From an uncultured Acidobacteriota bacterium (lineage in GTDB: Bacteria > Acidobacteriota > Blastocatellia > RBC074), in NCBI GenBank assembly GCA_963796275.1, contig CAWCKY010000006.1, positions 2,112,001-2,176,000 of the forward strand: a stretch of 64,000 nt of DNA, given 5' to 3'. Numbering within the stretch: the first letter of the stretch is position 1; each line of letters begins with the position of its first letter. Below are positions 52,341-62,663 of this stretch, one piece after another. Position numbers and translations under genes: made by a program. Below the pieces are notes generated by a model that searched no databases, was not told the origin of the DNA, and saw only the letters and a program-made list of their open reading frames with translations.

Positions 52341-53510
52341 ATGAAGAGAATCCATCATCTACTTGCCGTATCGCTATGCTGTGTATTGCTATGCTGCCTG
52401 AATATGGCAGCGTTCTCCGGTGCCGATCAGGAGAAGCGACCGCTCAGGCTAGCCGTAGCAGGCCTGAGCCACGGGCATGCCCCGTTAATCCTCGGCCGCA
52501 AGGATCGCGGCGACGTGCAACTCACCGGCATTTACGAAAAGAATCGCGAGGTCGCCGAGCGATACGCCAACCGCTATAAATTAGCGTCGTCGCTCTTTTT
52601 CACCGATCTGGAGAAGATGCTCGACGAGGTAAAACCGCAAGCCGTGGCCGCTTTCGGGACGACTTTCGATCATCTGGCCGTCGTGCAAGCCTGCGCGCCC
52701 CGCGGCATACACGTGATGGTGGAGAAGCCGCTGGCGGCGAGCTTGCAGCACGCACTCGAAATCGAGGCGCTGGCGAAGAAGCACCGCATCCACGTGATCA
52801 CCAATTACGAGACGACCTGGTATGCGAGCAATCAAGCTGTTTACGATTTTGCTCATAAGGAAAAGGCCCTCGGCCCGCTGCGCAAGATCGTCGTGCACGA
52901 CGGGCATCAGGGCCCGCAGGAGATCAAGGTCCCGCCGGAATTCCTTAAATGGCTGAATGATCCGGTATTGAACGGAGGCGGTGCGCTGATGGACTTCGGC
53001 TGTTACGGAGCCAATCTCGCCACCTGGCTGATGAAAGGAGAAGAACCCCTGACCGTCACGGCGGTGACGCAACAATTCAAGCCCGAGATATATCCGAAGG
53101 TCGATGACGAAGCCACGATCGTGCTGGCCTATTGCGATGCGCAGGCGATCATTCAGGCTTCCTGGAACTGGCCGGTCAACCGCAAGGATATGGAAGTGTA
53201 TGGGCGCGACGGCTACGCACATGCGCTGGACGCGCGCAACGTCAGACTGAGAAAACCGGGCGAACAGCAGGAGACCCCTCTCAAGCTGGCGGGGAAATCG
53301 GATCCCCTGGATGATCCCTTCGCTTACTTCGCAGCGGTGGTACGCGGCGATATCCAGATCGGTCAGAATGACTTGTCTTCATTCGCGAATAATATGACTG
53401 TCATGCGGATACTCGATGCGGCCAAGCGATCGGCGGCTACCGGTAAAACGGTGAAGCTGGCGACCGCCCGATGTGCTGGACAGAATGGGCGAGGGACGGC
53501 CAATCAATAG
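52341..53510 (+). CDS. Gfo/Idh/MocA oxidoreductase with N-terminal leader
   Basis: AVAGLSHGH, VMVEKPLA, GGGALMDFGCYG, QASWNWP. Confidence 0.9.
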   Translation: MKRIHHLLAVSLCCVLLCCLNMAAFSGADQEKRPLRLAVAGLSHGHAPLILGRKDRGDVQLTGIYEKNREVAERYANRYKLASSLFFTDLEKMLDEVKPQAVAAFGTTFDHLAVVQACAPRGIHVMVEKPLAASLQHALEIEALAKKHRIHVITNYETTWYASNQAVYDFAHKEKALGPLRKIVVHDGHQGPQEIKVPPEFLKWLNDPVLNGGGALMDFGCYGANLATWLMKGEEPLTVTAVTQQFKPEIYPKVDDEATIVLAYCDAQAIIQASWNWPVNRKDMEVYGRDGYAHALDARNVRLRKPGEQQETPLKLAGKSDPLDDPFAYFAAVVRGDIQIGQNDLSSFANNMTVMRILDAAKRSAATGKTVKLATARCAGQNGRGTANQ

Positions 53511-53535
53511 TCGTCCACGCGATAACGACAAGAGG

Positions 53536-55848
53536 TTAAATCGGAAAGAGCAGATCGCAATTTGCGCCGGATCGGCCCGGCCCATTGGATGAATCATCGT
53601 TGGCGATGACGCCGACCTCTTTGGCGGCGGCTTTGAGCCGGGCAGCGTACTCCTGCCGATCATAGTGAGCCGTGCCATTGCGATTGGTTGTACTGACCCG
53701 GTCGGCTTTCTTCTTCGCCTTTGCATTCGTGATCACATATCCGATCTTTTCGCCGGGGTGTACCTTAACTCCATCGTCGATCAGTTCGCGGGCGGCGAGT
53801 GCGGCTCGCGTTTCGACTTCGTATTCTTTGATCTCGCGGCTCAAGACCTGCTCGATGATCAGCAGGCGAGGGTCGACCTGCCCGCTTTCCAGTTGGGCGA
53901 GGCGAGCCTCGTAGATTGGGCGCGCTTCCTGCCGGCGCTGATGAAGCTCTTCGATGTCGCGCGCCTGAGACATCACGGCGAGCATCTCTTCCTGCGCCTC
54001 TCTGATGAACTGCGGCGTATCGTGTCGCCGGCAAGCCAGGCCGCGAATTTTCATGCTGCCATCGGTGAATACCCCGTAAAATCTCGCCGCCACCGGACGT
54101 GTTGATTTGACCTTCGACGGGGCGAAGACCAGCCAGCGATAAACGCCTTCGATGCTCATCTCGATTCCGGTTGCGCCGGTGATCGTTTCGCAGAGCCTCG
54201 GCAATTCTTCTTCGGTCAGGCCTTCCTTCATTATCCAAAGGCTGTCGGTCAGCGCGTGCAGCATCTCGAAGCCGGCATCTTCGGCTATCTCTTTCGCTCG
54301 CAGCAGCGTCTCCCGCCCCCAGGCCGTCACGGCCTCGTGCGCTTCGATGCGCCCCATCCGCGCGTTTTTATAACCCATATACCCGAAGCAGGTGACCAGC
54401 ATCCATTTGATCGCCGCGCGCCGGGCGTCGTAAATCGCCCGCGTCCGCTCATCCACGCTCTTCATCAACTGTTTGTAAACCCGACGCCGCTCGACCAGCG
54501 GCTCGAGCGTGAGCGGGATCAATCCGCGGCGCTTCTCGCAAATGTTGTAGCCGGCTTCGGGCACGGCGCTGTTCCGGCAGCACGAACAGAGCACGGTTTC
54601 GGGCGAAATGTTGCGCGTGACCATCAATGATGGATACATCGAGGCGAAATCTATCTCGGCTATGTTTTCGTATTCGCCGATCCTCGGTTGAAACGTCAAC
54701 CCGCCTTTGTCCACGGTCAGCAGCTGCAAAGCGGTCTTCGCTTTCTCGGGCTCATTCTTGCGCCAGGGGACCAGGATGCCGTCGTTGATGGCGCGATCCA
54801 TTTGCAGCGACGTCATGGCGGTTCCCGGCGACCGGCGCGCCGTTCTCTGCACGGGCAGCCGCGAGAGCCTGGCCAGCTCCAGCAGCCCCTCCAACCCGGT
54901 TTCGCCGTGCGCGAATGAGCTCTCGCGATCGATGTGCCAGCGCCCGCGGAGCGGATAACTCGGCGGTTTGTAGACGATGTTGCCGTAGCTGAAATAGGTG
55001 CGGCCTTCCGTCTCGATCTTGCGCTCGGTGACGACGCGATCGCGATCGAGCAGCAATTGCAGCTTTTCGCTTTGGGCGACCTGCAGCAATGCGGGAAGCA
55101 GCACCGAGTCGCCGCGCTCGCTCAGGATCAGGTCGGGGTCGTATCGCTCGATCATCCCGTTGAAGGCGGCGATCGCTTGCGCGCCGAGGGCAGGGTGGAG
55201 AACCGTCTCATCGCTCTCCGTCGCAATGAGGATGCGGCTCGCCCTGGTCAACGGGCGCATCCGCTCGCCGCGCATTCGCATCACGCGCAGCGGCGGCAGC
55301 GGGTGATCGATCTTCCACGCCGAGTCGGTTGCGGCGATTTCGATTACGGCGCCGCGCTCGTCGACGCGGGCTTCGAGGCGGCAGAGGGGAAAAAGTTTGG
55401 TCAGATAGAGGTAATGTTGCGGCGTCGGAATATCGAGGTTGTAGAAGCTGATCTCGCGATCCAGATTCGCCGCGATGTCGCGCAGCTTCGACAGGTGCGA
55501 CGAATCGGAGATGTTGAGCTGAATCACCTCGATCTCTTCGCCGCTCCAGAACTCGCGCTTGCGGGCCCAGCACAGTCCGGCGATCAGGTCGCGTTTGCAC
55601 ATATCCGCCGCGAGCTGTTTCAGTCTTCCTCGGTCGCCGTAAGCGTAAACCGGCGGATAGAATTCATCGGTCAACCGGTGCAACCGCCCATCGTCGTCAT
55701 AAACCCACAGAGTCACCCAGGGGCCGAGCTCGTCGATATCGAAGAGCCATCCCTCGATTCGATTGCCGGCGGTGGGCGATCCTTTGAGAAGCTTATTGGG
55801 TACGGGAAAGGGATGATGCGGCTCACTTCTTCGCATTCCGCAACTCAC
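53536..55848 (-). CDS. polB: Family B DNA polymerase, archaeal PolB2-like (degenerate exonuclease, altered motifs B and C); start may be 55836
   Basis: DKGG, EIDFASMYPS (motif A), NISPET.LCSCC, KWMLVTCFGYMGY (motif B), LHALTDSLW (motif C), KIRG...RRHDTP. Confidence 0.9.
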   Translation of the reverse strand: MSCGMRRSEPHHPFPVPNKLLKGSPTAGNRIEGWLFDIDELGPWVTLWVYDDDGRLHRLTDEFYPPVYAYGDRGRLKQLAADMCKRDLIAGLCWARKREFWSGEEIEVIQLNISDSSHLSKLRDIAANLDREISFYNLDIPTPQHYLYLTKLFPLCRLEARVDERGAVIEIAATDSAWKIDHPLPPLRVMRMRGERMRPLTRASRILIATESDETVLHPALGAQAIAAFNGMIERYDPDLILSERGDSVLLPALLQVAQSEKLQLLLDRDRVVTERKIETEGRTYFSYGNIVYKPPSYPLRGRWHIDRESSFAHGETGLEGLLELARLSRLPVQRTARRSPGTAMTSLQMDRAINDGILVPWRKNEPEKAKTALQLLTVDKGGLTFQPRIGEYENIAEIDFASMYPSLMVTRNISPETVLCSCCRNSAVPEAGYNICEKRRGLIPLTLEPLVERRRVYKQLMKSVDERTRAIYDARRAAIKWMLVTCFGYMGYKNARMGRIEAHEAVTAWGRETLLRAKEIAEDAGFEMLHALTDSLWIMKEGLTEEELPRLCETITGATGIEMSIEGVYRWLVFAPSKVKSTRPVAARFYGVFTDGSMKIRGLACRRHDTPQFIREAQEEMLAVMSQARDIEELHQRRQEARPIYEARLAQLESGQVDPRLLIIEQVLSREIKEYEVETRAALAARELIDDGVKVHPGEKIGYVITNAKAKKKADRVSTTNRNGTAHYDRQEYAARLKAAAKEVGVIANDDSSNGPGRSGANCDLLFPI

Positions 55849-56098
55849 TTTCCAATTCGTCCACGCGGGTTCGCAAATGCTTCTCTTCTCTGAGCATTTC
55901 GATCAGCATGGAGATGAAGACCGATTCCATCGGTTCGGGATTGGCCGCCTGCACGGCCGCCTGCACGTGCAGGCGCGCGCGTTCAAACAGCTCATCGAAA
56001 AGCTCCTGATCCCGCTTGCGCAGCGAGCGCCTGAACTGTCCCAAACGTTTTTGCTGTTCGGCCAACACCATACTGAATGGCAGGACCGTTCTTCCCAT
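55823..56098 (-). CDS. Small helical protein resembling the PolB2-associated family (arCOG07300-like)
   Basis: GGAGGTGG RBS; MGRT..PF...L......FRRSLRK.DQE.FDELF..A..H; overlaps the polB start. Confidence 0.75.
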   Translation of the reverse strand: MGRTVLPFSMVLAEQQKRLGQFRRSLRKRDQELFDELFERARLHVQAAVQAANPEPMESVFISMLIEMLREEKHLRTRVDELESELRNAKK

Positions 56099-56138
56099 TA
56101 GCCACCTCCCGATCTCGAGATGTAAGGACAACTCGGGT

Positions 56139-56162
56139 TACGGGGCATATATACGGGGCATA
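56139..56162. promoter_or_regulatory. 11-bp perfect direct repeat, candidate operator
   Basis: TACGGGGCATA-ta-TACGGGGCATA, about 40 nt upstream of the small gene. Confidence 0.35.
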
Positions 56163-56216
56163 AATTGCTAAAGAGTCGCTGTCAACGGTTGGGGCTATGA
56201 CGAACGACGCTCTTCA

Positions 56217-56816
56217 CTATGCGATCAACGAACGACCGCTACTATTTTCGAGCGTAAATGTGCGCTCTCCCTCCAGCCGGATCACCACGTTCGAGGCGCG
56301 GATGAGATCGGTCAGAAAGTGAGCGCGTTGAGGCTGGTCCGGCGTCTCGCTCTGCGCGAGCAGCAATGCCAGCCCTTCCCGCGATAACTCGCGCAAACGC
56401 CACAGCGAACGGTAAAACATGCGAGCCGCGTCGGTATGCGTGACATCTTCGTCGAGGAAGGTCGTGCAGATGCCGGAGACGATGACGACGGAGTAGGTGT
56501 CCTCCAGGGTGTCGGGGAGTTCGAGGCGATGAATCAGTTCATCGAGCTGGTAGGCCGTAAACGCGCGGGTGACCAGGATGCGTCCCAGAACCTCTTCCGG
56601 GTTTTTCTGTTGTGATCTGGCGCACCTGGCGACGATGTAGGGGTCGAACCGGTTGTCGCCGCAAAGGTAGAGAGACGGTTTGTGTTCGCAAGCCAGCTGC
56701 GCGGCCAGGTGTACGCCCAACGCCGAGGCATGGCCGCCGTACACGGTGACCATGCGCGATGGAAGAATCGAAGCGCGCACCGCACGCGGCGCAGAGCTGA
56801 TCGGTAGAGTTCGCAT
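56217..56816 (-). CDS. Inactivated RadA/RecA-fold protein
   Basis: GGAGG RBS; LYLCGDNRFDPY and ILVTRAFTAYQL are RadA-like; Walker A is degenerate (VYGGHAS) and Walker B lacks Asp (VVIVSG). Confidence 0.72.
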   Translation of the reverse strand: MRTLPISSAPRAVRASILPSRMVTVYGGHASALGVHLAAQLACEHKPSLYLCGDNRFDPYIVARCARSQQKNPEEVLGRILVTRAFTAYQLDELIHRLELPDTLEDTYSVVIVSGICTTFLDEDVTHTDAARMFYRSLWRLRELSREGLALLLAQSETPDQPQRAHFLTDLIRASNVVIRLEGERTFTLENSSGRSLIA

Positions 56817-57305
56817 GACAAAACCTCCAACGTAATCGAACTACTCGTGCCTGCGAACCACTTGAACTTCATACCCCGCACGCGACGTCTTAGGAATCGC
56901 CCGTGATTTTTTGCTTGGAAAGTCTGTTTGCCTGATGAGGTGGAAACCGCAAACCGACGGTCAGGGGACATTATCGAAGTTCGCCGAAAATTACAAGCTG
57001 AGAGAGGGCGGCCCGCCCTGTTCTTCACGGTTCGGTAAGGATGAAAAGCCGCAATGAACCGCTCTAAACCTCCGGCTTCAATGACAATTGCATGGAACGC
57101 GCCGATGGCTATATCGAGAATGTAATTTTAAAGGTAATTTTAAAATGAAGGTTGTGTAAAAAGAAAGACAAATAGCATAAACAGCCCGGAGTTCAGAGCG
57201 GGGGACGCGCAATGTCCGGCTTTTGATTCGCCGGTATCGTTTGCAGCCTGCTTTGGTAGTCTATTCCGCCATAGGCGCGGGCCCGATTGCGGGAATCAGC
57301 AGCGT

Positions 57306-57818
57306 TCAGTTTGACCCGGTTTTGTTACTCGGGTCATCGGCCGGATTCACCCAGATGGTCTTGAATGGACCGATGCCGTGAAGTTGGATTATGGTCTCCC
57401 CTTCGGCCCACACGAAGTGTCGCATCTCTCTCGGCATCATCAAGTATGAGCCGGCAGGCAGAGATGTGGCCCCCGCGCGATCGAACTTCTCTCCCATTCC
57501 GGCGTGGAGAGTTCCCGTCATTACGGTGAGGTGCTCGTCTATCGGATGCCAGTGCGGTGGCACTTGCAGGCCATCCCTGAGTTTCAGCCGGATGACGAAT
57601 GGCGCGCCCTCTTTTGCAGGATCTCCCGATAAGACTGCAATCTCCAGCCCCGGCGAGCGCGGCTTCCATTCAACCTTATCCGGTGTGACCTTTTTGCCGT
57701 GCGCTTGAGCTTTATCGGCAGGCGATGCCGAGGTCTGTTGTCTCTGAGCTATGGTAGATGGCGAATAGACCAATTGACTGAGAACAAATAGAAACATGAA
57801 CGCTAGATACTTTTTCAT
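57306..57818 (-). CDS. Secreted cupin domain protein
   Basis: Signal peptide; VLSGDP...G.FVIRL, VPPHWHP.DEH.TV..G, MP..M.HF.W, QLHG.GPF. Confidence 0.88.
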   Translation of the reverse strand: MKKYLAFMFLFVLSQLVYSPSTIAQRQQTSASPADKAQAHGKKVTPDKVEWKPRSPGLEIAVLSGDPAKEGAPFVIRLKLRDGLQVPPHWHPIDEHLTVMTGTLHAGMGEKFDRAGATSLPAGSYLMMPREMRHFVWAEGETIIQLHGIGPFKTIWVNPADDPSNKTGSN

Positions 57819-58776
57819 ATCTTAATCCTTTAGCTATATTCTATTAGATATATTCTATGCGTCGCGACTTCGGCCGAATGCTACCGAATGCTTAGAGAAT
57901 TCCGGCCTCTTCATTTCCTCTTATTTATTGCTCAGGTACCCTATCCCATAATTGGCTCAGGGGTAAGAGCCAATAGGCTGATTTTGTATAAGACCACTTT
58001 ATAGAAAAGTATGATGAATTAGATGAGGGAATTCCGGCTGACTCATGCAGACGCGCGTCTATTCTGGCGCTCAAGCCTGATGACACCTAGTTCTGTCGAA
58101 CTACGAACCGATACGCGAACACAATCCCCCGGGGCTCGATCAGGCGAATGTGGAGCCAGGTCAATTCAGTGGGAGAGTTTGCGAGACTACGTCTATAAGC
58201 TCATCCACGAATTTCGGCCCTTTCGCCTCTATCAAGTCAAGTGTCCACAGAACCGCAGCAGCAATCCGCGGCCACTCACTCTCGATGAAAAAACTAATTA
58301 GCGGCAGATGAGCAAATGATGGAGTGGATAGTGCAATCTGGGTGGATAAGTATTTATGAAATTAGTTGGCGGTAATTGCATTGTTACTCGGTTACTCGAC
58401 ATATCGCGCATGATCGAGACAATTACATTGTGTTATTAACGAGTATTGATAATACAGCCATTTTTCCATTTTATTGATGTTAGTTACCTGGTGTCTAACT
58501 GTTACATTTAACGGTAAGTTGATTGATCAATGAAGTTCATAAGGATAGGCTTTCCCCACGCTATCAAAGCAATAGCTTTTCTCAATATAGCCTTATAATT
58601 AAAACTTTCTGGGATTCTAGAACAGCCGAAATTGGTTACTAGGCTCATTCCTGCATGAGATCACTAAATTCCAATTATTGGGGGATGAGGCATTCAAGTG
58701 GCTAAAACTAACTAGAGACAAAGTGCAAATTACAGCAAATTTCAGATGAGTGAGCATATCTTGGGTAGCGGAGGCT

Positions 58777-58828
58777 TTGGAGTGCGGTTGCTTACCAAAG
58801 CGGTTGCAAGCAAGCAACCGCACTCCAA
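58777..58828. repeat. REP-like 17-bp perfect inverted repeat
   Basis: TTGGAGTGCGGTTGCTT (58777-58793) / AAGCAACCGCACTCCAA (58812-58828). Confidence 0.75.
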
Positions 58829-59072
58829 GGTGCTCTGCAATCCTCAACCCCGCATACTCATCTGAAATCCGCAGTAAAAGAGTATTTTAAAGGAAATGTT
58901 AGTTTAATTCGGCGTTGGCTTTGTTTAATTCTACTTGCTGGTAAAATCGAAATACTTGGGTTATTCGAGTAATAGGTTACAGCGTGGCTGTTTCATAATC
59001 GGAAGCAGAATCCCGCAATCCATCGACTTCACGCCTACCTTGGTAGTGCGCATTAATAAAGAATGAGGAAAT

Positions 59073-62000
59073 ATGAGTTCACATCCTTTTCCGAAGGGGA
59101 ATGTTATTGTTTTGGTGCTCTGCCTGCTGGCGGTGACGCTGAATTTGAGCGCGCAGTCAACGAGCGGTTCAATGAGCGGTACAATTTTGGATAACAGTGG
59201 TGCGGCGATCGCGAATGCGAGGGTCGTCGTGACTGATCAGAGCAAAAAAGTTTCATTTTCCGCCGTCACTGATGGCGAAGGTCGATTCGCGTTCACGCTA
59301 TTACAGCCTGGGCGGTACAACGTTACGGTGGAAAGCGCCGGTTTCCGAAAACTTGAATTGAAAGACGTCGTGCTCAATGCGAACGACAAGCTTTCGGTGG
59401 GCGAGTTGAAAATGGATATCGGAACCCTCGAACAAGTGATAGAGGTGGTATCCGAGGGCCAGCTGCTTAAAACGGAGAGCGGTGAACGTTCGGACGCGCT
59501 CGTCGGCGAGCAACTGCAAAACGTCGCGGTCAACAGCCGGACCTATCTGGCGCTGGCTGCGGTGACGCCGGGCGTCGTCGTCACCGGGAACAATTTTCAG
59601 ACCGCGGGCCACGCCGGGCTCGGCGATATTTCAGCTAACGGCGCGCGCCCCAATCAGAACCAGCTGACGCTCAATGGCGTCGGGAACGTCGATACGGGAA
59701 ATAATGGCGATCAATTGGCGACCATCAGCCTGGATTCCGTGCAGGAATATAAGATTCTCACGAGCAACTACCAGGCCGAGTATGGACGTTCGGCGGGCGC
59801 GCAGATCAACGTCGTGACCAAGAGCGGCACCAGAGAGTTTCATGGCAGCGGCTACCTCTTCCACCGTCACGAAGGGCTCAATGCCAACAATTGGAAGAAC
59901 AACCGTGATAGTCTGGGTCGCAACCTCTACCGGTTCAATAATACCGGGTATACGATTGGCGGGCCGATCAAACTTCCGAAGAAGGTCTTCGGGCCGCTCG
60001 CCAGGTTGGGAGAGGACAAGCTTTTCTTTTTCTGGAGCCAGGAATACCAGCGCCAGTTGCAGCCGCAAGGCAGACGTGACGTAACCGTTCCGACGGCGCT
60101 CGAGCGCATGGGCGATTTTTCGAATAGCGTCGACCTGAATGGTAACAAGGTCTTTATCAAGGACCCGCTGCTGCCGGGCCTCTGTAATGCTACCGATCAG
60201 ACCGCTTGTTTCAGTGATGGAGGCGTGCCCAACAAAATTCCGCAGAGCCGTCTCTATACTCCGGGCCTCGCTATTCTCAACATGTTCCCAATGCCGAACA
60301 ATCTGAGTTCGAGTACCCAGGGCTTCAACTTCACCACTCAGATTCCGAACTCCTATCCGAGGCGCGAAGACCTGCTGCGCATCGATGCCAATTTGAGCGA
60401 CAGGTGGAAGGTCTTTGGCCACATTTTGAATAATTTCGATTCCGTGACGAGTGATTACGGTTCGTTCGTTCTCGGATCGAACACGCCGTTCGGCACCCCG
60501 ATCACCGACATCCGGCCCGGCCGCAGCTATGCGGTAGGTGTGACCACGATCATCAATCCGACGATGACCAACGAATTCACGTGGGGGTACGGCCACAACC
60601 AGATCAACATCGACCCGGTCAATGACGGCCTGACCAGGAGCGCAAACGGACTGAGCGGCCTTCCGGTCCTATTTCCGGGCGCCATCCAGAATGATTTCAT
60701 CCCGCAATTCCAATTCAACGGCACACGGATCAACAATGAGCCGAACTTCGGGACCAACAACGCTCCTTTCTTCAACTACAACACGACCATCGACTTCGTC
60801 GACAACGTCAGCAAGGTCTGGAAACAGCACGTTTTCAAGGCCGGCTTCTACATCCAGCGCAGCCGCAAGGACCAGACCTCTTTTGCGAATGCCAATGGAC
60901 AGATCAATTTCGGCGACAATACCGGCAACCGATTCGATACCGGGTATGGTTTCGCCAATGCCGCGGTTGGAGTCTTCTCTTCCTTTAATCAGGCATCGCA
61001 GTACGCCACCGGCAGGTATCGTTATACCAACCTCGAGTTCTACCTGCAGGACACCTGGAAGGCAACGCGCAGGGTGACGCTCGATTACGGTATGCGCCTC
61101 TACTGGATTCAACCGCAGTTCGATTCAGCTCTCCAGACCGCGACATTTTTACCGGAGCAGTATGATCCGAGCAGAGCCGTCCGCCTCTATCGCCCCGCGT
61201 TCAATGGGGCTGCCATCGATCCCGTTACCGGGGAGATGCGCTTGGCATCCGACATCGGCAAGATCGTGCCCAACTCGGGGGACCTCTTCAATGGCATCGC
61301 GCAGGCGGGCACGGATGTGAGCAAGTACCTGATGGAGAACCGGGGTATCCAATATGGGCCTCGTTTCGGCATCGCATTCGACGTCACCGGCAAACAGAAC
61401 ATCGTGGTGCGAGCCGGAGCGGGAATCTACTACGACCGGTTCCAGGGGAATGAAACATTCGATATGTTGACTAACCCGCCCACTACGTTGGCTCCGACAC
61501 TGGTCAATGATTTCATCACGAACATCAACCCGATCGCAGACGTCAATTCGGGCAGTGTGCTCTTCGCTCCGTTCGGATTACATGCTTTCAGTTTCGAGGG
61601 GAAACTGCCGACCGTCTACAACTACAGCTTCAGCGTGCAAACCAAGTTGCCGTACGAGATGCTGCTGGATGTGGCCTATGTCGGTTCGCTCTCGCGCCAT
61701 CTGCTCCAGCGCTTGAATATCAATGCCATTCCTTACGGAGCGACTTTCTTGGCGCAGAATCAGGATCCGACGAAGGGCGGTGGTACACTCGGCTCGAGCG
61801 CTTTCGACGTCAACTTCCTCCGCCCATATCAGGGCTACGGAGATATCACGCTTCATCAGATGGGCGGCACATCAAACTACAATTCGCTTCAGGTGGGACT
61901 CAACCGCCGTTTCGCCAGGGGATTGTTCTTCGGGACGGCTTACACGTGGAGCAAAGCGCTGACCACGGTGAGCGGCGACGGCGATTTCATCCGGATCGAT

Positions 62001-62663
62001 GGCAACACGCGTCTGGCCAATTATGGTCCGGCCGGCTTCGATCGGCGCCACAATTTCACGTTAAATTACATCTATGAGGTGCCGGGCGTCAGCAGGTATT
62101 TGGGTCGCGCCGATAATTCGGTGACGCGGGCGATCTTCAACGGCTGGCAGATCTCCGGCATCACGAGGTTCCAGAGCGGCGGTCCCTATGCTGTAGGGTT
62201 CAACGTTCCCAACATTAACAACCAGAACATCACCGGTTCGTATACCGAAGGTGCCCGTGTGAATCTGTCTGGCGACCCGATGCAGGGAACATCGGATGAT
62301 CCCTATAATCGTCTGAATCCGGCCGCGTTCTCTGTTCCGGAAGTGGGCAGCATCGGGCTCGGCGCCCCGGTGAACTATCTGACGGGTCCGGGAGTCAACA
62401 GCTGGGATATGTCGTTACAGAAGTCTTTCTCCTTCAAGGAGAAGCTGCGACTTCAGTTACGCGCAGATGCCTTCAATGTTTTCAACCATACCCAATTCGA
62501 TGGGATTAACAGCAATATCACCTTCACCAATCTGACCGATCGAACGCCCACCAACCTCCCGTTCAATGCGGACGGCTCGTTGAGGGACAGGAACGGTTTC
62601 GGTACGGTGGCGAACGCGCGCGACCCGCGCATTATGCAGTTGGTTCTCAGGTTGCAGTTCTAA
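59073..62663 (+). CDS. TonB-dependent receptor (paralogue of 2917-6483)
   Basis: Signal peptide; LNANDKLSVGEL, YQAEYGR, VTKSGTREFHGS, GPRFGIAFD, C-terminal LQF. Confidence 0.93.
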   Translation: MSSHPFPKGNVIVLVLCLLAVTLNLSAQSTSGSMSGTILDNSGAAIANARVVVTDQSKKVSFSAVTDGEGRFAFTLLQPGRYNVTVESAGFRKLELKDVVLNANDKLSVGELKMDIGTLEQVIEVVSEGQLLKTESGERSDALVGEQLQNVAVNSRTYLALAAVTPGVVVTGNNFQTAGHAGLGDISANGARPNQNQLTLNGVGNVDTGNNGDQLATISLDSVQEYKILTSNYQAEYGRSAGAQINVVTKSGTREFHGSGYLFHRHEGLNANNWKNNRDSLGRNLYRFNNTGYTIGGPIKLPKKVFGPLARLGEDKLFFFWSQEYQRQLQPQGRRDVTVPTALERMGDFSNSVDLNGNKVFIKDPLLPGLCNATDQTACFSDGGVPNKIPQSRLYTPGLAILNMFPMPNNLSSSTQGFNFTTQIPNSYPRREDLLRIDANLSDRWKVFGHILNNFDSVTSDYGSFVLGSNTPFGTPITDIRPGRSYAVGVTTIINPTMTNEFTWGYGHNQINIDPVNDGLTRSANGLSGLPVLFPGAIQNDFIPQFQFNGTRINNEPNFGTNNAPFFNYNTTIDFVDNVSKVWKQHVFKAGFYIQRSRKDQTSFANANGQINFGDNTGNRFDTGYGFANAAVGVFSSFNQASQYATGRYRYTNLEFYLQDTWKATRRVTLDYGMRLYWIQPQFDSALQTATFLPEQYDPSRAVRLYRPAFNGAAIDPVTGEMRLASDIGKIVPNSGDLFNGIAQAGTDVSKYLMENRGIQYGPRFGIAFDVTGKQNIVVRAGAGIYYDRFQGNETFDMLTNPPTTLAPTLVNDFITNINPIADVNSGSVLFAPFGLHAFSFEGKLPTVYNYSFSVQTKLPYEMLLDVAYVGSLSRHLLQRLNINAIPYGATFLAQNQDPTKGGGTLGSSAFDVNFLRPYQGYGDITLHQMGGTSNYNSLQVGLNRRFARGLFFGTAYTWSKALTTVSGDGDFIRIDGNTRLANYGPAGFDRRHNFTLNYIYEVPGVSRYLGRADNSVTRAIFNGWQISGITRFQSGGPYAVGFNVPNINNQNITGSYTEGARVNLSGDPMQGTSDDPYNRLNPAAFSVPEVGSIGLGAPVNYLTGPGVNSWDMSLQKSFSFKEKLRLQLRADAFNVFNHTQFDGINSNITFTNLTDRTPTNLPFNADGSLRDRNGFGTVANARDPRIMQLVLRLQF

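What the first reader, a model, noticed from the sequence alone, without database searches (positions are those of the whole stretch)
53536..56816. Archaeal PolB2-type three-gene cassette in a bacterium: candidate mutasome
Seen: three co-oriented genes encoding a RecA/RadA-fold protein with no intact Walker A/B, a 91-aa MGRT...FRR.LR..D...FD.LF helical protein overlapping the next start, and a family-B polymerase unlike E. coli Pol II. Established: archaeal PolB2 (for example the damage-inducible Sulfolobus Dpo2) typically sits with a small conserved gene (arCOG07300) and an inactivated RadA. Bacterial imuA-imuB-dnaE2 uses the same design of a dead RecA-like protein, an accessory and an error-prone polymerase. 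Inference: this is a B-family analogue of the Imu mutasome in a probable acidobacterium. Bacterial homologues may already be catalogued genomically, but I know of no functional study.
Basis: partly seen in the sequence, partly recalled or inferred. Interest (0 to 1): 0.85.

Follow-up and report, generated by a model that had tools for sequence, protein, structure and literature searches.

The report
Bacterial PolB2 translesion polymerase gene cassette
Three neighbouring genes in a soil acidobacterium encode a known, archaea-derived repair DNA polymerase with its two helper proteins, a system already catalogued by computer analyses but never tested in a bacterium.

Summary
Three co-oriented minus-strand genes encode an ATPase-dead RadA-like protein (iRadA, 56217-56816), a 91-aa MGRT protein (PPB2 = arCOG07300 = Pfam DUF8156, 55823-56098) and a family-B polymerase (53536-55836).

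The polymerase falls in a fully supported clade of bacterial PolB2 nested among archaeal cassette-linked PolB2, away from E. coli Pol II. All three proteins match the three genes of a haloarchaeal cassette in the same order. The order iRadA-PPB2-PolB2 holds in 70 of 71 informative loci from many phyla. A three-chain model places PPB2 between PolB2 and iRadA (ipSAE 0.74, best control 0.00).

It is not new. Makarova 2014 described the bacterial operon with lexA, Timinskas 2025 called it a "PolB2 mutasome", and a 2026 survey lists it as bacterial group G2/PolB2.

This locus has three particulars. The upstream lexA found in many relatives is missing, but what looks like its promoter/operator and last 18 nt remain. 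The genome has no DnaE2, so no ImuABC. The polymerase carries a candidate clamp-binding tail.

Function as an SOS-induced, proofreading-less translesion polymerase is inferred, not shown.

The parts
56217..56816 (-). iRadA: 199-aa RadA/Rad51-core protein without the N-terminal domain and without Walker A/B. It carries the family motifs CGDNRFDPY (52-60), RAFTAYQ and DAAR.FYR.
   Evidence: ORF; GGAGG 7 nt before the ATG. Weak RadA/RadB sequence hits. Fold model pLDDT 90.1; first 50 Foldseek hits listed are all Rad51/RadA/Dmc1/paralogue chains. 51-sequence alignment.
55823..56098 (-). PPB2 (arCOG07300 / Pfam DUF8156): 91-aa helical protein with a free N-terminal MGRT arm.
   Evidence: Precomputed PF26485 on the window's own protein. 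ESM Atlas: 30 of 30 hits are DUF8156 clusters, archaeal and bacterial. MGRT invariant in 39 of 39. Model pLDDT 80.5: arm at residues 1-7, then helices. E 9e-15 to the haloarchaeal cassette protein.
53536..55836 (-). PolB2: family-B polymerase, 766 aa from ATG 55836 (770 aa if from GTG 55848; residue numbers below use the 770-aa frame). Motif A is DFASMYPS (D400). Motif C is LTD (L533-T534-D535) in place of DTD. The D(K/R) motif is D380-K381. The exonuclease motifs are degenerate.
   Evidence: PF00136 E 4.7e-35; NF004416 E 7.5e-125. Invariant columns in 45 sequences. Profile alignment to P. abyssi PolB: ExoI D-I-E corresponds to E-I-A, the ExoII Asp position corresponds to Leu, DTD corresponds to LTD. 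Tree.
53539..53556 (-). Last six codons of PolB2 (DLLFPI), which follow an acidic, low-complexity linker. This is a candidate beta-clamp-binding tail.
   Evidence: C-termini of close homologues end in ..LLFPI..LPLFPD..LLFPD or ..LLFPM. More distant PolB2 lack the extension. The likeness to QL[SD]LF / QLSLPL clamp motifs is recalled, not tested.
56968..56998 (-). Promoter/operator-like element: TTGTAA (56996-56991), then ATTTTCGGCGAACTTCGAT (56991-56973) with two TTCG half-sites 10 nt apart, overlapping GATAAT (56975-56970).
   Evidence: Matches the lexA promoter of the related four-gene cassette in L035 (24 of 31 identities, E 0.022). Conserved in 6 lexA-less cassettes. The same repeat lies before lexA genes in 5 genomes. 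Against it: the sigma-70 consensus scan called no promoter here.
56817..56967 (-). About 150-nt leader between the promoter-like element and iRadA. Its last part (56841-56858) matches the final 18 nt, stop codon included, of the lexA gene that occupies this place in relatives.
   Evidence: A blastn alignment (E 1e-23) begins in the lexA tail of L035 and runs on into iRadA. The block GTTCAAGTGG.TTCGC.GGC is invariant in 6 loci. There is no convincing conserved RNA fold (-2.4 kcal/mol).
53510..53529 (-). Weak terminator-like hairpin 7 nt after the PolB2 stop codon.
   Evidence: The region holds 6 such sites against 4.7 expected by chance, so this is not significant on its own.

Best explanation
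This is a chromosomal copy of the bacterial PolB2 operon, with genes in the order iRadA-PPB2-PolB2. Its ancestor came from archaea.

Shown by computation:
- The three proteins belong to the three families of that operon.
- The polymerase keeps the catalytic Asp of motif A and the second Asp of motif C.
- The polymerase has lost the first Asp of motif C and the exonuclease catalytic residues.
- A structure model places the N-terminal arm and the central helices of PPB2 against both the D380-K381 loop of PolB2 and the CGDNRFDPY surface of iRadA.

Inferred:
- The three proteins assemble into a complex. The published models propose PolB2 : iRadA : PPB2 trimer.
- The complex acts as a proofreading-less translesion polymerase or mismatch extender after DNA damage, by analogy with Sulfolobus Dpo2.
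- It is probably tethered to the beta clamp through the PolB2 C-terminal tail.
- Transcription probably starts at a retained lexA-type promoter whose tandem TTTTCG/CTTCG repeats are the likely operator of the genome's single LexA (C3:542138-542737). The cassette would then be SOS-induced, although its own lexA gene has been deleted.
For: Family membership:
- Searches place the three proteins in their families.
- Pairwise homology to the Halalkalicoccus cassette, in the same gene order: E 8e-8, 9e-15 and 4e-104.
- HMMs built from the Blastocatellia proteins find iRadA (E 1e-14 to 2e-24) and PPB2 (E 1e-20 to 9e-29) upstream of PolB2 in all 5 archaeal loci recovered.
- Profile scores separate three groups: cassette-linked PolB2 412-1358 bits, other archaeal PolBs of the same genomes 98-222 bits, E. 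coli Pol II 40.7 bits.
- Tree: the bacterial clade has support 100 and lies inside the PolB2 clade, also at 100.

Synteny:
- All three genes, in this order, in 23 of the 30 loci of the own-class survey (window included); the other 7 are cut by a contig end or are PolB2 fragments.
- 70 of the 71 loci with at least 1000 nt upstream, out of the 80 loci kept.

Active-site pattern:
- D400, K481 and D535 are invariant, and L533 is invariant, in 45 sequences.
- ExoI and ExoII catalytic residues are replaced.

Complex:
- ipSAE 0.74, 0.75 and 0.73 in three runs; best of 3 controls 0.00.
- The mark was reached by 58 of 80 solved complexes and 2 of 110 mismatched pairs.
- The runs agree in at least 89% of contacts; partner pLDDT is at least 86.
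- These counts hold only roughly, because my own alignments and three chains were used.
- No solved relative of PPB2 exists by sequence, so the pass is not recall of a solved complex.

Regulation:
- lexA lies directly upstream in 13 loci of the class survey and in 40 of 70 broader loci.
- The window keeps a lexA-promoter-like element and the lexA tail.
- The operator-like pattern has 38 hits against 11 for the reversed control in 5 genomes.
- It sits before cassette-linked lexA genes and before a fourth, free lexA of G108.

Literature:
- Dpo2 is damage-inducible and is a TLS extender (PMC7390963 and PMC8764526: titles and abstract starts in the search listing).
- Mutasome models are in PMC11791011 (sections 3.1-3.3 read).
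Against: - No experiment exists for any bacterial member. My searches found only computational work.
- The first Asp of the DxD motif is missing. This was long read as inactivation, and activity has been shown only for Sulfolobus Dpo2.
- The sigma-70 scan found no promoter in 53200-57400.
- The promoter homology is short (E 0.022).
- Most other genomic hits of the operator-like pattern lie inside ORFs.
- The recA upstream regions of 3 related genomes lack the repeat. The motif may therefore be a lexA/cassette-specific element, not a general SOS box.
- The complex job scored only PPB2, as a monomer, against PolB2 residues 30-720. The PolB2-iRadA interface and the PPB2 trimer were not scored here.
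- Binding to the clamp was not tested.
Confidence: 0.75

Rival explanations
1. The complex is non-catalytic. PolB2 with LTD in place of DTD would be an inactivated polymerase that serves as a scaffold or regulator, for example at stalled forks or in replication restart. This was proposed for the family in 2014.
For: The first Asp of motif C is replaced in all 45 aligned sequences. The exonuclease catalytic residues are lost. The partner ATPase is dead. Makarova 2014 (PMC4104785, passages read) suggested roles in eliminating stalled forks or in regulating replication.
Against: Motif A D400, motif B K481 and the second Asp D535 are invariant. That is the conservation pattern of an enzyme in use. 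Sulfolobus Dpo2 has the same kind of substitution (IID) and is reported to be active and required for targeted mutagenesis (PMC11791011 abstract and section 3.1; PMC8764526 title and abstract start).
Confidence: 0.12
2. The cassette is a mobile, defence-related or selfish module and not a housekeeping repair system, for instance a DNA-damage or infection sensor coupled to an effector.
For: Distribution is patchy: 26 of 201 genomes of the class, the window's own genome included. Some genomes carry several copies: 3 full cassettes in G108 and 2 in G161. Some relatives fuse a TIR domain to the PolB2 C-terminus: 6 of the best 120 hits, and L016. That TIR domain resembles defence TIRs. All 108 plasmid records with a match are haloarchaeal plasmids.
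Against: PADLOC has no model for iRadA, only a chance-level hit for PPB2, and only an intein-type hit for PolB2. The window's copy has no TIR domain. Its neighbours are metabolic genes: formamidase, aldolase, oxidoreductase, cupin. The ORFs listed for 50-60 kb hold no integrase or transposase. Linkage to lexA or Orc1/Cdc6 points to the DNA-damage response.
Confidence: 0.08
3. The cassette is a decaying remnant of a horizontal transfer and has no current function.
For: The adjacent lexA has been lost, leaving an 18-nt tail. Broken or fragmentary PolB2 copies exist in relatives: L024, L026, L028-L030, and hits with internal stops.
Against: All three ORFs are intact and have ribosome-binding sites. 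The proteins are 72-77% (PolB2), 66-72% (iRadA) and 74-84% (PPB2) identical to those of the nearest species. Dozens of columns are invariant. Interface residues are conserved.
Confidence: 0.04

Closest known systems
Bacterial PolB2 operons (iRadA-PPB2-PolB2, often preceded by lexA), e.g. Leptospirillum ferriphilum LFML04_0990-0993. Sources: Makarova 2014; Timinskas 2025; group G2/PolB2 in the 2026 survey of bacterial DNA polymerases.
   Same: The same three families in the only gene order reported for bacteria. The MGRT arm, the D(K/R) motif, the DxD substitution, the dead exonuclease and the dead ATPase are all present. A candidate clamp motif sits on one partner only.
   Different: No lexA is adjacent here; only a promoter-like element and an 18-nt tail remain. 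This is also the case in 9 other loci of the class survey and in 30 of 70 broader loci. The candidate clamp motif is on PolB2, not on iRadA, which the paper reports as the rarer case.
Sulfolobus/Saccharolobus islandicus Dpo2 (PolB2) with its iRadA and PPB2 neighbours
   Same: Homologous cassette. Proofreading-less B-family polymerase that lacks the first Asp of DxD. Damage-inducible and needed for targeted mutagenesis, according to the cited papers.
   Different: The archaeal host uses PCNA and Orc1-2 regulation, whereas this host would use the beta clamp and LexA. Dpo2 is shorter. I did not fetch or align a Sulfolobus sequence; my archaeal comparisons used haloarchaeal, Hadarchaeota, Bathyarchaeia and Methanosarcinales loci.
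E. coli Pol V mutasome (UmuD'2C-RecA-ATP)
   Same: The same design: an error-prone polymerase, a small oligomeric accessory protein with a functional N-terminal arm, and a RecA/Rad51-fold subunit. SOS control and clamp use are also shared. This parallel is drawn in PMC11791011.
   Different: The Pol V catalytic subunit is Y-family, not B-family. Its RecA is the active recombinase borrowed from the filament, not a dedicated dead paralogue. The accessory proteins are unrelated. The window's genome also has a UmuC-like gene with no adjacent umuD.
ImuA-ImuB-DnaE2 mutasome
   Same: A dead RecA-like protein, an accessory protein and an error-prone polymerase under LexA control.
   Different: The proteins are unrelated: a C-family polymerase and a Y-family-like ImuB. 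The window's genome has a single PF07733 (DnaE) hit, so no DnaE2 was found.
E. coli DNA polymerase II (PolB)
   Same: A family-B polymerase in a bacterium. It is SOS-regulated and binds the clamp through a C-terminal motif (recalled).
   Different: Pol II has an active exonuclease and a DTD motif and works alone. It scores 40.7 bits against the PolB2 profile, against 1358 bits for the window protein. It served as the outgroup of the tree.

Membership tests
PolB2 (archaeal-type family-B polymerase; bacterial group G2/PolB2) | Family-B polymerase domain with motif A, motif B and the second Asp of motif C retained | tested here: met
   PF00136 E 4.7e-35. D400, Y405, K481 and D535 are invariant in 45 sequences.
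PolB2 (archaeal-type family-B polymerase; bacterial group G2/PolB2) | Groups with cassette-linked archaeal PolB2, apart from other archaeal PolBs and from Pol II | tested here: met
   Tree of 45 rows: PolB2 clade of 38 rows, support 100; bacterial subclade of 31 rows, support 100. It was a quick LG+G4 search with SH-aLRT support only, and long outgroup branches were flagged. Profile scores agree. No phage PolB was included.
PolB2 (archaeal-type family-B polymerase; bacterial group G2/PolB2) | First Asp of the DxD (YGDTDS) motif substituted | tested here: met
   L533-T534-D535, invariant in 45 sequences. It aligns to DTD of P. abyssi PolB.
PolB2 (archaeal-type family-B polymerase; bacterial group G2/PolB2) | 3'-5' exonuclease active site lost | tested here: met
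   ExoI D-I-E aligns to E-I-A. The ExoII catalytic Asp position aligns to Leu. The ExoIII region does not align at all. This rests on a profile-to-sequence alignment, not on a structure.
PolB2 (archaeal-type family-B polymerase; bacterial group G2/PolB2) | Conserved D(K/R) motif in the loop before motif A that contacts the PPB2 arm | tested here: met
   D380-K381 are invariant. The haloarchaeal protein has DR at the aligned place. Residues 380-382 are in the modelled PPB2 interface. That this is the paper's motif is inferred from spacing to motif C: 155 residues here, 148 in S. islandicus as given in PMC11791011.
PolB2 (archaeal-type family-B polymerase; bacterial group G2/PolB2) | Error-prone polymerase / TLS extender activity | not testable with these tools
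   Needs biochemistry or genetics.
PPB2 (arCOG07300, Pfam PF26485 DUF8156) | Helical protein of about 90 aa with a conserved N-terminal MGRT arm | tested here: met
   91 aa. MGRT in 39 of 39 homologues. In the broad set, 72 of 73 read (M/V/L)GRT and 1 reads MGKT. Model: arm at 1-7, helices at 8-18, 20-25, 28-52 and 56-90.
PPB2 (arCOG07300, Pfam PF26485 DUF8156) | Sequence membership in the family, archaeal members included | tested here: met
   Precomputed PF26485.1 on the window's own protein. The local Pfam copy lacks that model, so I could not rescore it. BLASTP E 9e-15 to the Halalkalicoccus cassette protein. The profile finds 5 of 5 archaeal neighbours. Atlas: 30 of 30 hits are DUF8156 clusters. 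arCOG07300 itself was not searched, as no arCOG library was available.
PPB2 (arCOG07300, Pfam PF26485 DUF8156) | Homotrimeric coiled-coil state | not tested
iRadA (inactivated RadA/Rad51 paralogue of PolB2 operons) | RadA/Rad51 ATPase-core fold without the N-terminal helical domain | tested here: met
   Foldseek. At 199 aa, the protein aligns to the core of monomeric RadA constructs and of RadB.
iRadA (inactivated RadA/Rad51 paralogue of PolB2 operons) | Walker A Lys/Thr and Walker B Asp replaced | tested here: met
   GGHASALG against GPYASGKT, and VIVSG against VVVDS, in the RadB alignment. No GK[ST] is conserved at that place in 51 sequences.
iRadA (inactivated RadA/Rad51 paralogue of PolB2 operons) | Bound by a beta-alpha motif of PolB2 in the manner of Rad51 oligomerisation | not tested
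   The complex job scored only PPB2. The PolB2-iRadA interface was not reported.
Bacterial PolB2 operon | Co-oriented gene order iRadA-PPB2-PolB2 | tested here: met
   Window. All three genes in this order in 23 of the 30 class-survey loci, window included. 70 of 71 broader loci with at least 1000 nt upstream; L131 has neither partner upstream.
Bacterial PolB2 operon | lexA in the same predicted operon (frequent, not defining) | tested here: not met
   No lexA lies next to the window's cassette. The only LexA_DNA_bind hit in the genome is at C3:542141. A promoter-like element and an 18-nt lexA tail remain.
ImuA-ImuB-DnaE2 mutasome | C-family DnaE2 polymerase with ImuA and ImuB | tested here: not met
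   The polymerase here is family B. The genome has a single PF07733 hit. This is an analogue, not a member.
E. coli-type DNA polymerase II | Pol II orthology with an active DEDD exonuclease and a DTD motif | tested here: not met
   Pol II NCBIfam models score E 2.2e-16 or worse. Pol II is not in the best 60 PDB matches. It scores 40.7 bits against the PolB2 profile.

The most novel reading that the evidence does not exclude
In this Blastocatellia lineage the cassette has been rewired. Its dedicated lexA was deleted, but the operator was kept, so the genome's single LexA would now control it in trans. The clamp-binding tail also sits on the polymerase and not on iRadA. More speculatively, sister cassettes fuse a TIR domain to the PolB2 C-terminus. 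This hints that some bacterial PolB2 complexes couple lesion or replication-stress sensing to NAD-dependent signalling or cell-death effectors. If so, part of the family is a damage- or infection-triggered module and not a plain translesion polymerase.
Probability: 0.12. Interest if true: 0.6.

Novelty: new member of a known kind. Interest (0 to 1): 0.3.

Why it matters
The PolB2 complex is the only proposed multi-subunit B-family translesion polymerase of prokaryotes. Everything known about its bacterial branch is computational.

This locus is a clean member. It sits in a near-complete 9.46-Mb genome and has three intact genes. The genome lacks ImuABC, has one LexA, and carries DinB-like and UmuC-like genes. 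That makes it a reasonable candidate for the first bacterial tests: induction, complex purification, lesion bypass and mutagenesis.

The lexA-less variant offers a natural test of whether the cassette needs its own repressor. The tandem TTTTCG repeat is a concrete candidate operator for LexA of Blastocatellia. My one search for a LexA box in Acidobacteria found nothing in the library.

The finding opens no new category.

Tried and rejected
**General SOS box.**
- A 22-nt weight matrix built from four lexA promoters ranked the window's site 4th in the 9.46-Mb genome.
- The other top hits lie mostly inside ORFs or before unrelated genes.
- recA, umuC-like and dinB-like upstream regions of the own genome gave only one weak match, before recA.
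- The recA upstream regions of 3 related genomes have no such repeat.
- I therefore claim only a lexA/cassette-associated element.

**Structured leader RNA.** The consensus fold of six leaders is weak (-2.4 kcal/mol, no covariation term). Rejected.

**Promoter and terminator scan.** No sigma-70 promoter was called. The terminator-like sites are at chance level.

**Defence system.** PADLOC gave nothing meaningful for the three proteins.

**Pfam and Atlas.**
- The local Pfam copy gave no PPB2 family, and PF26485 is absent from the local library.
- ESM Atlas searched by features only; it holds no structure for either protein.

**Expression.** No RNA holder was listed for the cassette.

**Not done.**
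- I did not search the phage collection or viral contigs.
- I did not include phage PolBs in the tree.
- I did not fold PolB2 alone.
- I did not search PPB2's fold against the PDB.
- I did not test the PPB2 trimer, the PolB2-iRadA interface or clamp binding.

**Supplements.** The supplements of PMC11791011 (operon lists, clamp-motif tables, model scores) were not opened. They may already list this genome or its clade, the TIR fusions and the inteins.

Full report
**What is there**

One search shows three co-oriented ORFs on the minus strand of 53536-56816. They lie between metabolic genes: formamidase, HpcH aldolase and a Gfo/Idh/MocA oxidoreductase on one side, and a cupin on the other.

- The first gene (56217-56816, 199 aa) has GGAGG just before its ATG.
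- The second starts at ATG 56098 behind GGGAGG and encodes 91 aa beginning MGRT.
- The third most likely starts at ATG 55836 (766 aa), because close homologues begin at the equivalent Met. It then overlaps the stop of the second gene by 14 nt.
- The window is C6:2112001-2176000 of a 9.46-Mb genome in 7 contigs, 94.7% complete.
- Source names on close homologues read Blastocatellia/Acidobacteria.

**The three proteins: iRadA**

- Sequence searches give only weak RadA/Rad51/RadB matches.
- The AlphaFold model is confident (pLDDT 90.1).
- The first 50 Foldseek PDB matches listed are all Rad51, RadA, Dmc1 or Rad51-paralogue chains.
- In the HMMER alignment to RadB, the Walker A GKT and the Walker B Asp are replaced.
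- The 51-sequence family alignment conserves other motifs (CGDNRFDPY, RAFTAYQ, DAAR.FYR) but no P-loop.

**The three proteins: PPB2**

- The window's own protein carries the precomputed Pfam label PF26485 DUF8156. The local Pfam copy lacks that model.
- The ESM Atlas returns only DUF8156 clusters, both archaeal and bacterial.
- The model shows a free arm (residues 1-7) followed by helices.
- MGRT is invariant.

**The three proteins: PolB2**

- It has PF00136, and its best NCBIfam model is NF004416, a 'type B DNA-directed DNA polymerase' (E 7.5e-125, below that model's cut-off).
- Archaeal PolBs are the nearest solved structures; Pol II is not among the best 60.
- In 45 aligned homologues, motif A (D400), motif B (K481) and the second Asp of motif C (D535) are invariant.
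- The first Asp of motif C is an invariant Leu.
- Against P. abyssi PolB, the ExoI D-I-E aligns to E-I-A and the ExoII Asp position aligns to Leu. The ExoIII region does not align.

**Link to archaea**

- A tblastn search of the plasmid collection found 108 records, all haloarchaeal, 11 of them covering at least 80% of the query at about 30% identity.
- In Halalkalicoccus jeotgali plasmid 1 the hit is the last gene of the row Cdc6/Cdc18, a 229-aa hypothetical, a 93-aa hypothetical and a type B polymerase.
- The window's three proteins match those three in order: E 8e-8, 9e-15 (both small proteins start MGRT) and 4e-104.
- A scan of one genome per species found 180 relatives among 199 pattern matches.
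- The best 80 come from Blastocatellia, Terriglobia, Thermodesulfobacteriota/Syntrophaceae, Nitrospinota, Leptospiraceae, Chloroflexi, Acidimicrobiia and others, plus Hadarchaeota, Bathyarchaeia and Methanosarcinales.
- Some MAG labels, such as 'Clostridia' or 'Heliobacteriaceae', sit on contigs that the genome tool places in the window's own class, so I treat them as unreliable.
- Profiles built from the Blastocatellia iRadA and PPB2 find both genes, in order, upstream of PolB2 in 70 of the 71 loci with at least 1000 nt upstream, including all 5 archaeal loci. One Spirochaetia locus (L131) has neither. Nine further loci have too little upstream DNA.
- In a tree of 45 rows that I picked (31 bacterial PolB2, 7 archaeal cassette-linked PolB2, 6 other PolBs from the same archaeal genomes, and E. 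coli Pol II as outgroup), the bacterial rows form one clade (SH-aLRT 100). That clade lies inside the PolB2 clade (support 100).
- It was a quick LG+G4 search, and long outgroup branches were flagged.
- The result reproduces the single archaea-to-bacteria transfer reported in PMC11791011 (section 3.1 read).

**Complex**

- One three-chain job was run: PolB2 residues 30-720, iRadA, and PPB2 as the scored partner, each with its alignment.
- It gave ipSAE 0.74, 0.75 and 0.73, against 0.00 for the best of 3 controls.
- The mark was reached by 58 of 80 solved complexes and 2 of 110 mismatched pairs.
- The runs agree in at least 89% of contacts, and the partner's pLDDT is at least 86.
- The tool warns that these counts hold only roughly, because my own alignments and three chains were used.
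- PPB2 residues 2-6 and 39-56 touch PolB2 374-387 (including the invariant D380-K381), 512, 516, 532 and 581-585, and iRadA 52-86 (including CGDNRFDPY).
- This matches the published description of the PPB2 arm lying in a cleft between PolB2 and iRadA next to the D(K/R) motif (PMC11791011, section 3.3.1 read).
- PPB2 has no solved relative, so the pass is not recall of a solved complex.
- The model supports binding but does not show it. The PolB2-iRadA interface and the PPB2 trimer were not scored.

**Regulation**

- In the class survey, PolB2 was found in 26 of 201 genomes, the window's own included. All three genes lie in the same order in 23 of the 30 loci returned.
- lexA lies directly upstream in 13 of these loci, but not in the window or in 9 others.
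- The own genome has one LexA, on another contig.
- The window's upstream DNA aligns with the four-gene cassette of a sister genome from the last 18 nt of lexA into iRadA (E 1e-23). Separately, 31 nt match that cassette's lexA promoter (24 of 31 identities, E 0.022).
- Six lexA-less cassettes share this leader. The simplest reading is an internal deletion of lexA that kept its promoter.
- The promoter-like element holds a tandem repeat (ATTTTCG-N3-ACTTCGAT here). The same repeat stands between the -35 and -10 regions of lexA genes in five genomes.
- A pattern search found 38 hits against 11 for the reversed control.
- The pattern search hit lies upstream of the cassette-linked lexA genes of three of the five genomes (G026, G174 and all three G108 copies) and of a fourth, free lexA in G108; G013's cassette lexA promoter carries the repeat by eye. 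Most other hits lie in ORFs.
- The recA upstream regions of three related genomes lack the repeat, and the sigma-70 scan called nothing here.
- I therefore rate LexA control of this cassette as likely but unproven.

**Other TLS systems in the genome**

- One family-B polymerase, which is this one.
- Two Y-family genes, DinB-like and UmuC-like. The UmuC-like gene has no adjacent umuD.
- One DnaE, and hence no DnaE2 found.

**Clamp**

- The window's PolB2 and its close homologues end with an acidic linker and ..LLFPI, ..LPLFPD or ..LLFPD.
- More distant PolB2 lack the extension, while their iRadA proteins are longer at the C-terminus.
- This fits the published 'either PolB2 or iRadA' pattern of clamp motifs (PMC11791011, section 3.3.3 read).
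- The likeness to QLxLF/QLSLPL motifs is from recall, and binding was not modelled.

**What is known and what is new**

- The association of PolB2, arCOG07300 and inactivated RadA, its presence in bacteria and its link to lexA were published in 2014 (PMC4104785, passages read).
- The names iRadA and PPB2, the heteropentamer models, the MGRT arm, the clamp motifs and the term 'PolB2 mutasome' date from 2025 (PMC11791011).
- A 2026 survey lists bacterial G2/PolB2 (PMC12926913, passages read).
- Experimental work concerns Sulfolobus Dpo2 only (PMC7390963 and PMC8764526: titles and abstract starts seen in the listing).
- Searches for 'PolB2' with RadA/arCOG07300, LexA/iRadA/bacteria, and mutasome returned no bacterial experiment.
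- The finding is therefore a correct recognition of a known system: a new member, with a lexA-less promoter-retaining arrangement as its only local peculiarity.

**Verdict**

- Observation: confirmed.
- Interpretation: supported.
- Novelty: low.
- Membership in the PolB2 operon family: about 0.95.
- Proposed function (an SOS-induced, proofreading-less TLS complex): about 0.75 overall.
- Interest: 0.3.

Noticed in passing
L016 1495-4137 (same place as L081); proteins P0089, P0105, P0115, P0116, P0117, P0120: Some Blastocatellia PolB2 carry a C-terminal TIR domain (880 aa; PF13676 at residues 741-871, E 1.1e-26). The locus still has lexA-iRadA-PPB2 upstream. This applies to 6 of the best 120 homologues. 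No paper in the library holds both 'PolB2' and 'TIR domain', and the main text of PMC11791011 does not mention TIR. The paper's supplements were not seen.
   Followed up: partly
P0113 (1254 aa); L027 / L122: Intein-bearing PolB2 (LAGLIDADG and intein-splicing Pfam domains) in a relative of the same class.
   Followed up: no
Genome G108: C3:275723, C17:93082, C23:42180, and L058 788-1708: One related genome carries three full lexA-iRadA-PPB2-PolB2 cassettes with the same upstream repeat, plus a fourth lexA with no PolB2 match on its contig that also has the repeat upstream.
   Followed up: partly
Own genome C7:300978-301120 (outside the window): recA reads as frameshifted about 40 codons in. 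The Pfam match is split, with a TAG in the first piece. This is probably a 1-nt assembly indel, which suggests the assembly has some homopolymer errors.
   Followed up: partly
Own genome C6:1767320-1767375 (outside the window): The UmuC-like gene has no umuD beside it. It is preceded by a tandem 21-nt repeat GTAAGAAC[CT]TAATTGT that holds a GAAC-N6-GTTC palindrome, possibly a different operator.
   Followed up: no
window 56099-56216: The 118-nt spacer between iRadA and PPB2 holds TTGACA and a tandem ATGCCCCGTA x2. This might be an internal promoter or a regulatory site. The promoter scan called nothing there.
   Followed up: no
Alignment A3 (L011, L012, L034, P0233, P0234, P0239): Some PPB2 proteins have C-terminal extensions ending ..PLFAL.. 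or ..FALVAPNEE... These could be clamp-binding-like motifs on the small subunit and not on PolB2 or iRadA.
   Followed up: no
L131 (Spirochaetia MAG): This is the only locus with ample upstream DNA in which neither iRadA nor PPB2 was detected before PolB2.
   Followed up: no
window 57500-59000: An AT-rich stretch (GC 0.43-0.47, against about 0.55-0.60 around it) lies between the cupin gene and a large TonB-dependent-receptor-like ORF (59073-62663). No long ORF lies in it.
   Followed up: no
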